Positions 21,005 through 26,271 are shown, counted from the stretch's first letter. The stretch is DNA of 64,000 bases from Candidatus Heimdallarchaeota archaeon (GCA_011364965.1 RDOB01000001.1:188017-252016), one strand, 5' to 3'. Program-made: numbers and translations. The notes: generated by a model not told the origin, from the sequence alone.

Positions 21005-21427
21005 ATGAATATACAAGCATTCAGAGGATTCATTTTGATGAATTATAATGATTTAACAATATTACAAATCTTTAGCATTACCTTCTTCGGAATACTTTTT
21101 GGCGTTTTTGAACTGATTACTAATGGAATTTACATTATTACTAGAAATTATTCTCTTCCCTCCAAACAACACCGTTTTGAGCTCCCTCTTAATCCATCAT
21201 CAAAGATAGTTTGGCACAAAGTTGTTCAAATGCACATTTTGGGATTTTTACTTACAACCACTGCTATAATAGCATTGTTGTTCTCTCCTTACATATTCAT
21301 TGTGGGTGTAGCCATGATATTAATAAATGGATTGATAGATTATACTAAATTCCACAAATCTAGTGTTTTTTATTTCTGGATAATTTTAGCTATACTTGCT
21401 GGCTCCTCGCTCTTAATAGTCATATAA
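21005..21427 (+). CDS. Small membrane protein (about 4 TM); true start may be 21038
   Basis: Hydrophobic ORF filling the intergenic gap. Confidence 0.6.
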   Translation: MNIQAFRGFILMNYNDLTILQIFSITFFGILFGVFELITNGIYIITRNYSLPSKQHRFELPLNPSSKIVWHKVVQMHILGFLLTTTAIIALLFSPYIFIVGVAMILINGLIDYTKFHKSSVFYFWIILAILAGSSLLIVI

Positions 21428-21709
21428 TGATTTAATTTTTTCTAGAATATCTTCGTATTTAGCACTTTTGATCCGAAATACCTTTTTTGTTGATGTTTCG
21501 CCTCTTTCTAGCCTAATTTCCTTTTTAAATTGCTTTTTAAGCAATCTAAGTATCTCTTTATTCGCTTTTCCCTTTACTGGTTGTGATGTTACGAAAATTA
21601 TCAAATTTTCATTGTTTATTTGTATTTTTGATTGTTTCTGTCCAGTTTTTATTTGAGCGATAAGTAGAATATCTTGTGAGTCTACCTTCAACCATTCTGG
21701 AGGGTGCAT
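21413..21709 (-). CDS. DUF167/UPF0235 (YggU) family protein
   Basis: SQPVKGKANKE..L and GETSTKK motifs. Confidence 0.88.
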   Translation of the reverse strand: MHPPEWLKVDSQDILLIAQIKTGQKQSKIQINNENLIIFVTSQPVKGKANKEILRLLKKQFKKEIRLERGETSTKKVFRIKSAKYEDILEKIKSLYDY

Positions 21710-23679
21710 TCTATTCCATCTGCATGTAAAGAAGTGATATCAGAAAATGATATTTGTTTTAAAGTAAATTGCCTTTCAATTATTTTGAGGGCATCCATTA
21801 AAGGTAGATTTTCTTCAATCCATATAAAATTAAGAAAATAACGAGCTAGATTACTTGGATTCAAGCTCTCACTATAGGGAATACCTAATGCGAGAGAAAC
21901 TCGTTTTTGAAATCTACTAATATATTGAGGGGAGGATTTTCGTCCAATCTCACGAATGATATCTTCTGGTTGTTTAAATGTCCCAAGAATGTAAAAATTT
22001 CCTCCAATTACCGTGAATCCATAGATAATTCCTGTTTCTTCATCCTGTGTAATGAATTTCTTCCCTAATAAATACCTAAAAGTTTCTGGTACAGAATGAA
22101 AATAAACACCGATTTTTGCATGAACTTCATCTGAGAGGAATATAAATGCTGAAGTAGGGAGAACACAGTAGTAAGAAGTAAGAATTTCGTGAGGTGAGAC
22201 CAGTAAGCGTTCAATGTTATTTAATAACCAGAGATTTTCTGGAGAAAATGCGTTTCCCTCTCCAATATTTAACTTCTTTGCAATAGAAAAACGAAGATCA
22301 GCTAGATTCTGCTTTGCTAATCCTTCAAGAAATATATCGAGTAAATAAGAAGGAGGAACAGGTCGTTTGATGATGATTGCTTGGCCATAGGGAGAAGCAT
22401 TAATTAAACCCGCGATACGCCCAAAATTCGATCCTGCCATTCCTTTAATTTGGTTTCCGATAATTGATTCATTGGTTTTAGCCCTTCCTGCAGCTGGAAT
22501 CCAAGCAGGAATTTTTAACACCTCTAGAGCTTCATTGTTAACAATAGATCGTTCTAAAGATGGATTTTTAAACTTTTTATCTTCCAGAAACCATGCTTTT
22601 GTTAAATTTGGTTTAATTGGGCTAGCTTCAACTCCAGATTGCGTCAGCCACTGGTTAAATATTGAAGGGATCAAAGATATCTTTTCAGGTATATTTAATG
22701 CCTGACTAATAATTGCAGTCAATTCTTGGGTTGTGATAGACTTCAAGTCAATAGAAATCCTTCTTAATGAGTCGTAATACTTTTTTTTCAATATAGATAT
22801 GTCCAAAGGAGCCTCTTGAACAATGGGTATGTAAATTCGGTCATCTATTCTCACTGGGGGTCGAAATAATCCAAGTGGGATTCCTTCAATATCAAAAGCT
22901 ACTCTACCTACAAAATCCCATAAATCTACAGCTATTTGTTCACTTATTTGATCTTCAACAGAAGGACAAGACGGGGGAATGAGATCTTTAGATTCCTCTA
23001 TATCTTGAATGGGGGTCGAAATAATAGATGATACTCCTTGTTGCAAACTAAAAGGCTTTATCATCTCTTCTAAATCAAAAATTTTGTCAGATTCATCTTT
23101 TATAGGAATTTTTAATGATTCAAGGATTTCTAGCTCAACTTCGTTAAGAATTTCTGTATCCAAGGCTAAGTCGTTTTTATAAAAACTCTTAAGTGAATAA
23201 TCTTGCCATATTCTGGCAAATTCACTAAATAAACTCTTCAGAGATGCAAATTCATGCTCAGAACTAATTTGATTTATGAAATCTTCAATATCTATACTAT
23301 TTTCTTTTTCGATATTACTTAATCGTTTTAATTTTAAATTCAATCGGTAATTTAACTGGTTCTGCTTCAACGAGTAGAATTCTTTTTTTCTGACATAATT
23401 ACTGATGATCTCTTTAGCTCGTTCACGATCTAAATTCCCAGTTTCCCATTCTTTGACACTTTTCTTGATTCTTGTTTCAGTTTCATGAATTAATAATTTT
23501 TTAGATTGGATCTCTTTGTTTATAAAAACAACTCCAAATATATCAATAAATGGAACTCTCTCCATTTTCTTTTGAACATCACTTGTCTTAAGATCATCCA
23601 AAAATTGAATTAAAGTACTTTCATTTAGGATTCCAGTATCTCGGAGATCTATTAGGATTTTACGTAGATCATTCATCAA
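21688..23679 (-). CDS. Coiled-coil protein with three PRC-barrel-like repeats (CdvA-like architecture)
   Basis: Repeat starts FVGRVAFDIEGIPLG, IIGNQIKGMAGSNFG and LLGKKFITQDEETG, each followed by a homologous helical insert. Confidence 0.6.
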   Translation of the reverse strand: MMNDLRKILIDLRDTGILNESTLIQFLDDLKTSDVQKKMERVPFIDIFGVVFINKEIQSKKLLIHETETRIKKSVKEWETGNLDRERAKEIISNYVRKKEFYSLKQNQLNYRLNLKLKRLSNIEKENSIDIEDFINQISSEHEFASLKSLFSEFARIWQDYSLKSFYKNDLALDTEILNEVELEILESLKIPIKDESDKIFDLEEMIKPFSLQQGVSSIISTPIQDIEESKDLIPPSCPSVEDQISEQIAVDLWDFVGRVAFDIEGIPLGLFRPPVRIDDRIYIPIVQEAPLDISILKKKYYDSLRRISIDLKSITTQELTAIISQALNIPEKISLIPSIFNQWLTQSGVEASPIKPNLTKAWFLEDKKFKNPSLERSIVNNEALEVLKIPAWIPAAGRAKTNESIIGNQIKGMAGSNFGRIAGLINASPYGQAIIIKRPVPPSYLLDIFLEGLAKQNLADLRFSIAKKLNIGEGNAFSPENLWLLNNIERLLVSPHEILTSYYCVLPTSAFIFLSDEVHAKIGVYFHSVPETFRYLLGKKFITQDEETGIIYGFTVIGGNFYILGTFKQPEDIIREIGRKSSPQYISRFQKRVSLALGIPYSESLNPSNLARYFLNFIWIEENLPLMDALKIIERQFTLKQISFSDITSLHADGIECTLQNG

Positions 23680-23839: not shown

Positions 23840-24856
23840 TTATTGAGACTCATTAGACTTAGAACCTAGGTTTTCTGGAACTGTGAACTCAAATGGAGGT
23901 TTTGTAGTTACAATTACTCCCTTTTCCTCGGTTATTATGAATGTGTGCTCATGCTGAGCAACATAACTTCCTTTTTCATCAGCTAAAGGAGGATAAGCTA
24001 TCGCGCCGCCTCCATTTAGTAGCTGACGAAGTGTAAACCGAACTCGTGATTGATTGAATCCGTCAAATGATGTAAGATGTCTTTCAGCAAAAGGTAAAGA
24101 TTTGTATCTTTGGTATGTTGTAGAGTAGATTTTCCTAGATACTGGATTTCGGATTGCAATCCGCCTCGGAAGTAGCATATAGATGAATTTAGACCCAGAT
24201 ACTTCATGGACGCTGCCTGTTCCTGTAGAAGCGAATGTTTCCAACGCAAAAGCCTCTCCCACCTGCAAATCACCCTCAGCGGGATCATATGGGACACTTA
24301 TGTTCGGTAAACGCTTATCTCCATGTAATTCGTACCTACCAAGCTTATGTCCAGTTAACTCTCGTATTGGTCTATAATCATAACTAAGAATGGTTTCTTC
24401 GATTTGTTTTCCTATAACAGATGGGAGTGTACCTGCTTGTATGATCTCCATTCCAGAACGGAATCCCTCTTCCGCAGCTTTGACCAGGTTCTTATAGGTA
24501 TTAGAGAGAGGGATGGATACAGCTGTGTCTGCAATGTATCCATTTACATGAACACCAATATCCAATTTTACTATACCATCGTTTGGTATAACGCTTTGAT
24601 CTCCATATGGACTTGAATAATGAGCAGCAATATTATCAATCGAGACATTTGTAGGAAAACCTAAACCATCGGCCCCTTTTTCCAAAATCAGATTCTCTGC
24701 TGTTTCGCACACATTAATAATTGGGATATTGGGCTTAATCATTGATTTTACTTCATCCAAAACTTCGTATGCAATCTTGCCAGCCTTCTGATAGTAATAA
24801 ATCTTTTCCTCTTCTGTTATTCCCTCTTCAGATGTCCAATCACTCACGAGATTCAC
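23840..24856 (-). CDS. map: Methionine aminopeptidase type II
   Basis: AAHYS, KLDIGVHVNGYIADTA, LTGH, ALETF, QHEHT; type II helical insert. Confidence 0.96.
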   Translation of the reverse strand: MNLVSDWTSEEGITEEEKIYYYQKAGKIAYEVLDEVKSMIKPNIPIINVCETAENLILEKGADGLGFPTNVSIDNIAAHYSSPYGDQSVIPNDGIVKLDIGVHVNGYIADTAVSIPLSNTYKNLVKAAEEGFRSGMEIIQAGTLPSVIGKQIEETILSYDYRPIRELTGHKLGRYELHGDKRLPNISVPYDPAEGDLQVGEAFALETFASTGTGSVHEVSGSKFIYMLLPRRIAIRNPVSRKIYSTTYQRYKSLPFAERHLTSFDGFNQSRVRFTLRQLLNGGGAIAYPPLADEKGSYVAQHEHTFIITEEKGVIVTTKPPFEFTVPENLGSKSNESQ

Positions 24857-25005: not shown

Positions 25006-26271
25006 TTGAACAATGAAAATATAGTATTAGAACTTGAAGAATTATTAAAAAGGCAATATATTCTATCATCAGAGAGAGCAGTTGAATTTATTAACTTTTG
25101 TGACCTTTTGGGAGAGAAAATTCATTCTATCGATGAAGAAAAAAAAGATTTTTATCTTTATATTATTCAACATCTTCGGTTATTCTTTAATTCGGAATTT
25201 ATGTACCATAGCAATTTAGTTGAAAAAGCACTTAAATCTTACCAGAAAATGAAGGAAAATTTGTCCATTACACAAACGGAATTCCCTGATCTTTATGCAA
25301 CTTGGCAATATGATATTGATCGATTAATATACAGGACTGAGGCGCGAATCCAAGAGCTTAAAGCACAATTCGCAGTAATTCAAGAGGATTATATCCAAGC
25401 TGATGTTTTATTTGTTGAAACTCTAAATAGATATAATGTTGAATTAGAATTTGAACAAAAAAATGAAGACTACGAACACTACTTTGACTCATTGGCACAT
25501 ATTTTCTATAATACTGGATTACTCTATAGAATACGAGGAAAAACAACAAAAAATCAAGCTGATTTATACCAAGCTTTGAAAAATTTGAGGAAAGCGGAAT
25601 TTCTTGGTAAAACAGGATTTTCAGCATTAATTGACGAAATTAAAGAGGAAAAGTTTTCATTTACTCAGATAAAACTAGAAAATCAAGCAGATACTTTTTT
25701 TACGAAAGGATTAACTGAATCAGAAATGGAGAATTATAATATAGCTAAGAACATGTATCAGAAATCTGCTCAAATTTATCGATCCTTAAATCATCTAAAA
25801 CCTGCGTTTGAATATGAACTTCAAGAACAGATCCAAATTTCCTCATATTATGAAGCTACGGCAAAGAATTATATGATTCAAGACATGAATGAAGAAGCGG
25901 CAAAACAATTCTCTAACGCAAGTCAAATTCTACAGCAATTGCTAACGAAACTCAATAATGAAGTTTTATCACTACAATTTGCTCCACAAATTAAATATTT
26001 TGATGCTATGGAATTATTTTGCCAGGCAGTTACAGAATATGACAAATTAGATACAAAAGCTGCAGAACATTTCGATTTGGCCCAAAAAATGTTAAATAGG
26101 GCTAAACTGGAATCAGATGAGCAGAATAATCAACCTCTTGCAAAAAGCTGTACTGATGCATTGGCTAGATTGAACTCTTATCAAGAGATTGTTGAGCTTA
26201 TGCTTTCACCGTCTCAAATTGATAGAGAAGAGACTTTAGATGAATTTAAGGAAAATCTAGAAGAAGAATAA
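25006..26271 (+). CDS. Alpha-solenoid (TPR-like) protein
   Basis: All-helical; repeats YNIAKNMYQKSAQIY and NEEAAKQFSNASQIL. Confidence 0.65.
   Translation: MNNENIVLELEELLKRQYILSSERAVEFINFCDLLGEKIHSIDEEKKDFYLYIIQHLRLFFNSEFMYHSNLVEKALKSYQKMKENLSITQTEFPDLYATWQYDIDRLIYRTEARIQELKAQFAVIQEDYIQADVLFVETLNRYNVELEFEQKNEDYEHYFDSLAHIFYNTGLLYRIRGKTTKNQADLYQALKNLRKAEFLGKTGFSALIDEIKEEKFSFTQIKLENQADTFFTKGLTESEMENYNIAKNMYQKSAQIYRSLNHLKPAFEYELQEQIQISSYYEATAKNYMIQDMNEEAAKQFSNASQILQQLLTKLNNEVLSLQFAPQIKYFDAMELFCQAVTEYDKLDTKAAEHFDLAQKMLNRAKLESDEQNNQPLAKSCTDALARLNSYQEIVELMLSPSQIDREETLDEFKENLEEE

What the first reader, a model, noticed from the sequence alone, without database searches (positions are those of the whole stretch)
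21688..23679. CdvA-like protein with three PRC-barrel repeats, each carrying the same helical insertion
Seen: three internal repeats of roughly 130-150 aa beginning near nt 22925, 22470 and 22080. Each opens with a PRC-like hhG+.h....G..hG strand pair and contains an aligned insert (LTAIISQALNIPEKISLIPSIF / LRFSIAKKLNIGEGNAFSPENL / FQKRVSLALGIPYSESLNPSNL). The N-terminal coiled coil (IKKSVKEWETGNLDRERAKEI) recalls the CdvA coiled coil. Established: CdvA (PRC barrel plus coiled coil) and haloarchaeal CdpB PRC proteins act in cell division. Inference: an undescribed, domain-permuted, triplicated division or ESCRT adaptor.
Basis: partly seen in the sequence, partly recalled or inferred. Interest (0 to 1): 0.7.

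Follow-up and report, generated by a model that had tools for sequence, protein, structure and literature searches.

The report
Triple split-PRC-barrel protein linked to profilin
This Hodarchaeales (Asgard archaeon) gene encodes an undescribed protein with a coiled-coil head and three copies of a PRC barrel, each split by the same helical insert; its relatives in other Heimdall-group archaea sit next to the profilin gene, which points to the actin cytoskeleton rather than to cell division.

Summary
The ORF at 21688-23679 (-) probably starts at the ATG at 23676 and encodes 662 aa. It is a conserved gene found in 20 of 21 genomes of its genus.

- **Repeats:** profile-profile comparison shows three homologous repeats (probability 92-96%, P 8e-7 to 8e-9). 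The shared helical insert carries most of the signal.
- **Fold:** AlphaFold2 models the repeat region confidently. Repeat 2 searched alone against 48,161 PDB chains gives only PRC barrels in the top ten (RimM, MTH1859, CdpB, CdvA, reaction-centre H). The alignments bridge a roughly 60-aa helical insert between strands 3 and 4.
- **CdvA/ESCRT/division reading:** not supported. The N-terminus shows no similarity to CdvA, there is no linkage to ftsZ, sepF or ESCRT genes, and the family co-occurs with SepF elsewhere.
- **Gene context:** a wider profile finds the family in 79 of 400 Asgard genomes. The gene lies beside profilin in 11/11 genomes of one family, 18/28 of another and in three more lineages, in three different orientations, often with DUF167. 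Some members carry poly-proline tracts just before the barrels.
- **In Hodarchaeales:** only MetAP2 -> X -> DUF167 remains, and profilin lies elsewhere.

My best reading is a profilin/actin-associated scaffold, which is inferred and not shown. Other first readers of this scan noted the family in five other genomes, and none of those notes was followed up.

The parts
21688..23679 (-). Gene X: 662/663-aa coiled-coil plus triple split-PRC-barrel protein. The likely start is the ATG at 23676.
   Evidence: ORF. There are 33 full-length homologues at 35-45% identity, all annotated as Asgard 'hypothetical protein'. Present in 20/21 genomes of the genus.
23116..23676 (-). N-terminal all-helical region (residues 1-187). 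It includes a long helical hairpin (residues 42-126, nt 23299-23553) whose tip carries the invariant W-E of the WETG motif.
   Evidence: AlphaFold2 model. W77 and E78 are invariant. Only generic hairpin matches were found. The region is not detectably conserved outside Hodarchaeales.
22933..23115 (-). Disordered acidic linker (residues 188-248): 13 D/E, 5 K/R, 6 P.
   Evidence: pLDDT 25-38. Composition. The equivalent linker carries P4-P7 runs in some family-f7 homologues.
22501..22929 (-). Repeat 1 (residues 250-392): split PRC barrel. The helical insert is residues 291-352 (nt 22621-22806).
   Evidence: Strand-helix-strand order in the model. hhalign to R2 gives 91.7% and to R3 95.4%.
22096..22470 (-). 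Repeat 2 (residues 403-527): split PRC barrel and the most conserved repeat. The helical insert is residues 441-498 (nt 22183-22356).
   Evidence: Folded alone, pLDDT 81. The top ten of 48,161 chains are all PRC barrels, and Foldseek agrees. Weak profile match to canonical Asgard PRC: 54%, P 1.3e-4.
21697..22080 (-). Repeat 3 (residues 533-660): split PRC barrel. The helical insert is residues 569-635 (nt 21772-21972).
   Evidence: Model. hhalign to R2 gives 95.8% and to R1 95.4%.
21413..21709 (-). DUF167/YggU gene. Its start overlaps the end of X by 22 nt, so the two are probably translationally coupled.
   Evidence: Pfam PF02594 E 6e-14 and TIGR00251. It lies downstream of X in all 14 Hodarchaeales loci examined. 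In family f4 it lies in an operon with profilin next to X.
23840..24856 (-). Type II methionine aminopeptidase, 160 nt upstream of X on the same strand.
   Evidence: TIGR00501 at 270 bits, over the cut-off. The adjacency is conserved throughout Hodarchaeales, and the gene lies within 3-4 kb in f24, f25 and f32.

Best explanation
Shown: gene X encodes a soluble protein. It has an N-terminal helical hairpin/coiled-coil region, an acidic disordered linker, and three tandem homologous PRC barrels. Each barrel is interrupted between strands 3 and 4 by the same helical module of about 60 aa, so one already-split barrel was triplicated. The triple-barrel array is the conserved core of an undescribed family. 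The family is confined to Heimdallarchaeia and a few other Asgard lineages. Outside Hodarchaeales the gene is persistently adjacent to the profilin gene, often with DUF167. Inferred: X is a multivalent scaffold of the Asgard profilin/actin system. The helical head would oligomerise it. The flexible linker, which is poly-proline in some lineages as in a formin FH1 or VASP, would recruit profilin or profilin-actin. The three split barrels would be the binding modules for actin, profilin or a cortical partner, and DUF167 would act as a small co-factor. In the Hodarchaeales copy of this window the profilin gene has moved away and only MetAP2 -> X -> DUF167 remains, so the functional link here rests on orthology.
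For: Architecture and repeats. Family distribution: 79/400 Asgard genomes (f1 20/21, f2 2/2, f4 28/31, f7 12/12, f24 6/7, f25 5/5, and f22, f29, f32, f33), none in 135 genomes of f20. All database hits are Asgard hypothetical proteins. Profilin adjacency: in f7, 11/11 genomes have 89-129 nt between convergent 3' ends. In f4, 18/28 are divergent neighbours. Adjacency also occurs in f29, f32 and f33, co-directional in f33. That is three orientations with different flanking genes. DUF167 follows profilin in the f4 and f32 loci and follows X in Hodarchaeales, which ties the three genes together. P4-P7 runs lie immediately before the first barrel in 3 of 5 sampled f7 genomes. Heimdall and Thor profilins bind poly-proline in vitro and no native ligand has been identified (PMC8410842).
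Against: No direct evidence of binding to profilin or actin exists. In the window's own lineage X and profilin are 1.3-2.5 Mb apart or on different contigs. The Hodarchaeales linker has no poly-proline. Poly-proline tracts are confined to one sub-clade. Profilin occurs in many Asgard lineages that lack X, for example f5 and f6, so X is not generally required for profilin function. Gene adjacency among related genomes is partly inherited synteny. PRC barrels have no known role with actin. Seven f4 genomes have the two genes on different contigs, and the f24 and f25 members lack the adjacency.
Confidence: 0.4

Rival explanations
1. X is a cell-division or ESCRT adaptor related in function to CdvA or CdpB. 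The PRC barrels would polymerise or bind SepF, FtsZ or ESCRT-III, and the coiled coil would act as in CdvA.
For: PRC barrels of CdpB (8onw, Z 6.2) and CdvA (9s9g, Z 6.1) are among the best structural matches. CdpB chains top the full-length Foldseek list. Archaeal PRC proteins are established division factors. The genus lacks detectable SepF (1/21, weak) and mostly lacks canonical PRC proteins (5/21), while FtsZ is present.
Against: There is no sequence similarity to CdvA or to Pfam PRC. RimM and reaction-centre H match equally well. There is no linkage to ftsZ, sepF or Snf7 genes. X co-occurs with SepF in f4 (28/31 for each) and f7 (12/12 for each), and with canonical PRC in f7, so it does not substitute for them. 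The domain order is the reverse of CdvA, and no ESCRT-III-binding C-terminal peptide was identified.
Confidence: 0.15
2. X is a ribosome- or translation-associated factor. RimM-like PRC barrels would bind a ribosomal protein or nascent chains, acting together with the upstream methionine aminopeptidase.
For: The best single structural match is the RimM C-terminal domain (2dyi, Z 7.5; also 3h9n and 7cq1). MetAP2 lies directly upstream throughout Hodarchaeales and within 3-4 kb in f24, f25 and f32. SUI1 and RpoP are a few genes away.
Against: The similarity is at fold level only. No RimM N-terminal domain was found. A spacer of 93-253 nt separates MetAP2 from X, whereas X and DUF167 overlap. MetAP2 is a housekeeping gene in a block of conserved synteny. 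The tightest and most rearrangement-resistant neighbour across lineages is profilin.
Confidence: 0.1
3. X is a lineage-specific structural or scaffold protein with no functional connection to its neighbours, and the profilin/DUF167/MetAP2 adjacency is inherited synteny.
For: The adjacency is lost in Hodarchaeales, f24, f25 and part of f4 without loss of X. Related genomes are not independent samples.
Against: The adjacency persists across at least five family-level lineages in convergent, divergent and co-directional arrangements, while the other flanking genes differ: S8 protease in f7 and arginase in f4.
Confidence: 0.3

Closest known systems
PRC-barrel superfamily (Pfam PF05239: RimM C-terminal domain, reaction-centre H subunit, MTH1859, CdpB1-3, CdvA N-terminal domain)
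   Same: The barrel fold is the same, with the G-x-x-h-G first hairpin. The ten best structural matches of repeat 2 are all members. There is a weak profile match over strands 1-3.
   Different: No Pfam hit was found. Each barrel is split by a helical module of about 60 aa. Three barrels sit in one chain behind a coiled-coil head. Known archaeal members are single small proteins or have one barrel.
CdvA (Thermoproteota division protein)
   Same: It combines a PRC barrel with a helical or coiled-coil region. Its barrel matches repeat 2 at Z 6.1.
   Different: The domain order is reversed. X has three barrels with inserts. There is no sequence similarity of the helical part, no linkage to cdvB or cdvC, and no ESCRT-III-binding tail was identified.
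CdpB1/CdpB2/CdpB3 (FtsZ/SepF-linked PRC proteins of Euryarchaeota)
   Same: PRC barrels that assemble with each other. An array of three barrels recalls the three paralogues.
   Different: The three barrels of X are internal duplicates that share a derived insert, and not a fusion of CdpB1-3. No SepF is detectable in the genome. The gene context is profilin/DUF167.
Formin and Ena/VASP-type actin assembly factors (functional analogy only)
   Same: The architecture is an oligomerisation module, then a disordered linker that is poly-proline in some members, then a folded C-terminal array. The gene is adjacent to profilin.
   Different: There is no FH2, EVH1 or WH2 homology. Poly-proline is absent in the window's protein. 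No actin binding has been shown. These factors are eukaryotic and unrelated in fold.

Membership tests
PRC-barrel superfamily | Small all-beta PRC barrel fold | tested here: met
   Repeat 2 model: the top 10 of 48,161 chains are all PRC barrels, Z 7.5-4.9, 62-75 residues aligned, rmsd 2.5-3.8 A. The Foldseek top hits are all PRC. Repeats 1 and 3 are assigned by homology to repeat 2.
PRC-barrel superfamily | Match to Pfam PF05239 above the gathering score | tested here: not met
   No PF05239 hit at E<=10. The genome search with PF05239 does not find this gene. Only a weak profile-profile match was found: R2 54%, P 1.3e-4.
PRC-barrel superfamily | Contiguous barrel of about 80 aa | tested here: not met
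   Helices at residues 443-500 lie between strand 3 and strand 4. The structural alignments bridge them.
CdvA | N-terminal PRC barrel followed by a coiled coil and a C-terminal ESCRT-III-binding peptide | tested here: not met
   The order here is helical region, linker, then three barrels. The C-terminus ends with the last barrel strand.
CdvA | Sequence similarity to the CdvA family | tested here: not met
   No Pfam or PDB-sequence match at E<=10.
CdvA | Genomic linkage to cdvB (ESCRT-III) and cdvC (Vps4) | tested here: not met
   The Snf7 genes are on contig C16, whereas X is on C13.
CdpB | Small single-barrel protein acting with SepF and FtsZ | tested here: not met
   X is 662 aa with three barrels. 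SepF is not detected in the genome (87% complete) and is found in only 1/21 genomes of the genus, weakly. Interaction was not testable.
RimM | N-terminal RimM domain plus a C-terminal PRC barrel | tested here: not met
   No RimM domain hit. Only the PRC half matches structurally.
Formin / Ena-VASP (works-like only) | Poly-proline tract that binds profilin, next to an actin-binding module | tested here: inconclusive
   P4-P7 runs occur before the barrels in three f7 genomes but not in the window's protein. Actin or profilin binding is not testable with these tools.

The most novel reading that the evidence does not exclude
X is an Asgard-specific actin assembly or anchoring factor that works with profilin. 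It would be a functional analogue of formin or VASP, built from a coiled coil, a profilin-recruiting linker and three split PRC barrels, with DUF167 as a co-factor. It is retained in Hodarchaeales, the proposed closest archaeal relatives of eukaryotes.
Probability: 0.22. Interest if true: 0.9.

Novelty: new variant of a known kind. Interest (0 to 1): 0.72.

Why it matters
Asgard archaea have actin, profilin and gelsolin, but no known nucleator, elongation factor or native poly-proline ligand for profilin. A conserved, undescribed family sits next to profilin across several Heimdall-group lineages and sometimes carries FH1-like proline tracts. That makes it a concrete candidate that can be cloned and tested directly in actin assays. 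It would also give the first functional context to DUF167/YggU, a family conserved from bacteria to humans. Independently of function, it extends the PRC barrel to a new architecture, a split barrel that has been triplicated. It also shows that a PRC fold in an archaeon is not by itself evidence for a division role.

Tried and rejected
- **Self-BLAST:** found no repeats. Profiles were needed.
- **Sequence family searches:** Pfam, NCBIfam and PDB-sequence searches of the protein, of family profile A1 and of the merged-repeat profile A6 gave nothing significant.
- **Narrow-alignment hhalign against canonical Asgard PRC barrels:** not significant, P 0.04-0.07. Only the diverse alignment gave a weak R2 match.
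- **Full-length model with VIA-align:** the list was filled by generic helical hairpins (CHMP4B, SerRS, Smc, Snf7) at Z 9-11, below the helical noise level. This is not evidence for an ESCRT-III relation.
- **Complex prediction of X with DUF167:** no verdict, score 0.00. This is neither for nor against binding.
- **X as a substitute for the missing SepF or CdpB in Hodarchaeales:** rejected, because X co-occurs with SepF in f4 and f7 and is absent from f6, which also lacks SepF.
- **A hidden profilin among the small unannotated ORFs next to X in Hodarchaeales:** none found. The single profilin of the genome is on contig C9, beside an Eco57I-like methyltransferase.
- **N-terminal region homology outside Hodarchaeales:** not detected.
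- **Membrane anchoring:** no TM segment and no marked N-terminal amphipathic helix.
- **Literature:** no paper was found that describes this family or a profilin-adjacent PRC protein.
- **Eukaryotic homologues:** none among the hits, although those searches are limited.

Full report
**What is there.** The window has about 35% GC. It holds an intact ORF at 21688-23679 on the minus strand. Homologues start at its second codon, the ATG at 23676, which gives 662 aa. Residue numbers below follow that form. Pfam, NCBIfam and PDB-sequence searches find nothing significant. A word-indexed search of 5.8 billion proteins returns 33 relatives, most of them full length, at 35-45% identity. Every relative that carries a name is an Asgard (Heimdall/Hodarchaeales) 'hypothetical protein'. 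An exhaustive phmmer scan of 1.84 billion representatives finds only 27 proteins, including 25%-identity forms of 660-800 aa. The named ones among these are almost all labelled Hodarchaeales. The gene is real and conserved. Mean column identity in the alignment is 61%, and many Gly, Pro and Trp residues are invariant. It is present in 20 of 21 genomes of the genus.

**The repeats.** Self-BLAST shows nothing.
- With the Hodarchaeales-only alignment, each pair of repeats gives P about 1e-3 in one consistent register. N-terminal controls give P 0.3-0.8.
- With a more diverse 25-sequence alignment (A4) the result is clear. R1-R2 gives 91.7% (P 7.7e-7, 108 columns), R1-R3 95.4% (1.7e-8) and R2-R3 95.8% (8e-9).
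- The helical inserts alone give 85-96.5%, with P down to 9e-10.

The insert is therefore homologous in all three units, so a barrel that was already split was triplicated. This argues against a fusion of three different PRC proteins such as CdpB1-3.

**The fold.** AlphaFold2 with the family alignment gives pLDDT about 85-93 over residues 250-660. The model has three units. Each has three strands, then three to four helices, then three strands. Before them come long helices (42-78, 84-126, 130-187) and a disordered segment at 165-248.
- Foldseek with the whole model ranks the A. fulgidus CdpB1/CdpB2 chains first (E 8e-3) and also lists RimM.
- VIA-align on the whole model is swamped by the helical hairpin, so it is uninformative.
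- I therefore folded repeat 2 alone (pLDDT 81) and searched 48,161 representative PDB chains without a Foldseek prefilter.
- The ten best are all PRC barrels: RimM 2dyi (Z 7.5, 71 residues, 2.9 A), MTH1859, RimM 3h9n, A. fulgidus PRC1/2 8onw, S. islandicus CdvA 9s9g (its residues 6-69), 3htr, 7cq1 and three reaction-centre H subunits.
- The first clearly unrelated fold has Z 4.2. Foldseek gives the same families.
- All alignments run from model residue 1 to about 125-136, so they bridge the helices. The helices are therefore an insertion between strands 3 and 4.
- At sequence level the link to canonical PRC is weak: R2 gives 54%, P 1.3e-4 over strands 1-3, and R1 and R3 give P 0.015-0.03 in the same register.

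Repeats 1 and 3 were not folded separately.

**Does it resemble CdvA, or point to division?** The evidence does not support this.
- The N-terminal region has no CdvA match in Pfam or in PDB sequences.
- Its hairpin resembles any long helical hairpin (CHMP4B, seryl-tRNA synthetase, Smc, Snf7) at Z 9-11, under the level expected by chance for helical folds.
- It is not even conserved outside Hodarchaeales.
- The genome has FtsZ about 32 kb from X, and two ESCRT-III genes on another contig.
- No SepF and no canonical PRC protein are detected in the genome, which is 87% complete.
- SepF is essentially absent from the whole genus (1/21, E 0.009) but present in sister families f4 (28/31) and f7 (12/12).
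- I considered whether X replaces SepF or CdpB. This is rejected, because the wider family co-occurs with SepF in f4 and f7 and is absent from f6, which also lacks SepF.

**Gene context in Hodarchaeales.** X is preceded by a type II methionine aminopeptidase (TIGR00501, 270 bits), with a spacer of 93-253 nt. It is followed by a DUF167/YggU gene that overlaps its end or lies within 37 nt of it. The overlap is 22 nt in this window. This order holds in 35-44%-identity orthologues and in the 25%-identity Hodarchaeales branch. A co-fold of X with DUF167 gave no verdict.

**The wider family and profilin.** Three weak hits outside the order proved to be true homologues covering all three repeats (hhalign 98.9% and 95%). 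In each case the adjacent gene is a profilin. A profile of the triple-barrel region (A4) then found the family in 79 of 400 Asgard genomes:
- f1 20/21, f2 2/2, f4 28/31, f7 12/12, f24 6/7 and f25 5/5;
- single genomes in f22 and f29, and three genomes across the remaining families, which include f32 and f33;
- none in 135 genomes of f20, nor in f5, f6, f12 or f19.

I fetched 20 loci and mapped X, profilin, DUF167 and MetAP2 with local HMMs. I then compared genome-wide profilin positions with X positions across the class:
- **f7:** X and profilin are convergent neighbours in 11/11 genomes, with 89-129 nt between them.
- **f4:** they are divergent neighbours in 18/28 genomes, and profilin is followed by DUF167 in one operon.
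- **f32:** the order is X, profilin, DUF167, with MetAP2 3 kb away.
- **f33:** profilin lies directly downstream of X on the same strand.
- **f29:** the two genes are convergent.
- **Hodarchaeales (f1):** the single clear profilin is 1.3-2.5 Mb away or on another contig.

The adjacency survives three different orientations while the other neighbours change (S8 protease in f7, arginase in f4). This argues for selection on the linkage and not just for slow decay of synteny. Related genomes are not independent, however, and I did not count rearrangement events on a tree. In three of five sampled f7 genomes the linker just before the first barrel carries runs of four to seven prolines, up to six runs in one protein. 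Heimdall and Thor profilins bind poly-proline in vitro and no native ligand has been named (PMC8410842). I found no paper that describes this family.

**Interpretation.** The following is shown:
- the protein is soluble (no TM segment);
- it has a helical head, an acidic disordered linker and three homologous split PRC barrels;
- the barrel array is the conserved core of the family;
- there is a conserved neighbourhood of X, profilin, DUF167 and MetAP2 in the Heimdall group.

The following is inferred. X is a multivalent scaffold acting with profilin, and hence with the actin system. The head would oligomerise it, the linker would recruit profilin in at least some lineages, and the barrels would be the binding modules. 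DUF167 is a likely partner. I put this at about 0.4. The rivals are a function unrelated to the neighbours (0.3), the division/ESCRT reading (0.15) and a RimM-like ribosome/MetAP link (0.1).

For the copy in this window the profilin link is indirect. It rests on orthology and on the retained DUF167 coupling, and the linker has no poly-proline.

**Novelty.** At fold level this is a new variant of a known kind: a PRC barrel that is split and triplicated. The family as such is undescribed, and so is its genomic association with profilin. First readers of this scan flagged the same family in five other genomes. None of those notes was followed up.

Noticed in passing
own genome (G000) and its genus; SepF search of 83 genomes of the class: SepF (PF04472) is not detectable in this genome and is found in only 1/21 genomes of the genus (E 0.009, below cut-off). 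This includes closed and 96-99% complete genomes, although FtsZ is present (G000 C13:177667-177954). Sister families f4 (28/31) and f7 (12/12) have SepF, and f6 (0/12) does not. The FtsZ membrane anchor in Hodarchaeales is therefore open.
   Followed up: partly
L097 10113-10836 (+), L098 2421-3139 (-), L101 5177-5866 (-), L111 8881-9557 (+), L112 5746-6448 (-): In family f4, profilin and DUF167/YggU form a tight, overlapping two-gene unit divergent from X. This is a possible first functional context for DUF167.
   Followed up: partly
L094 7083-10148 (-), L096 6771-9929 (-), L089: The long (about 1020-1050 aa) f7 forms of X carry FH1-like poly-proline tracts (P4-P7, up to six runs) just upstream of the first barrel. 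Close relatives (L095, L092) lack them.
   Followed up: partly
L102 5472-7073 (-), L103 6302-7891 (+), L104 10-1575 (+): Family f7 has a second, shorter paralogue of about 530 aa that matches only the part of the profile covering repeats 2-3. It is not adjacent to profilin.
   Followed up: no
window 25006-26271 (+): A 421-aa protein with no family (only faint TPR-like hits) is transcribed divergently from MetAP2. Proteins of 407-422 aa with no Pfam family occupy the same position in L001-L004.
   Followed up: no
genus g1: G065 C1:308038, G066 C1:4812700, G074 C59:32126, G075 C218:175: The only canonical PF05239 PRC matches in the genus lie in long ORFs of 370-413 aa in 5/21 genomes, and not in small CdpB-like genes. 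None is present in this genome.
   Followed up: no
G000 C9:34780-38197 (L114 7780-11197): The genome's single profilin gene is followed by a 953-aa Eco57I/MmeI-type restriction-modification methyltransferase, which suggests that the region has been rearranged.
   Followed up: no
L061 143-3088 (+), L094 3501-6446 (+): In f7, a subtilase (Peptidase_S8) of about 980 aa lies directly upstream of profilin on the same strand.
   Followed up: no
window 21005-21427 (+): A 140-aa ORF convergent with DUF167 has no family hit and is not present at this position in L001.
   Followed up: no
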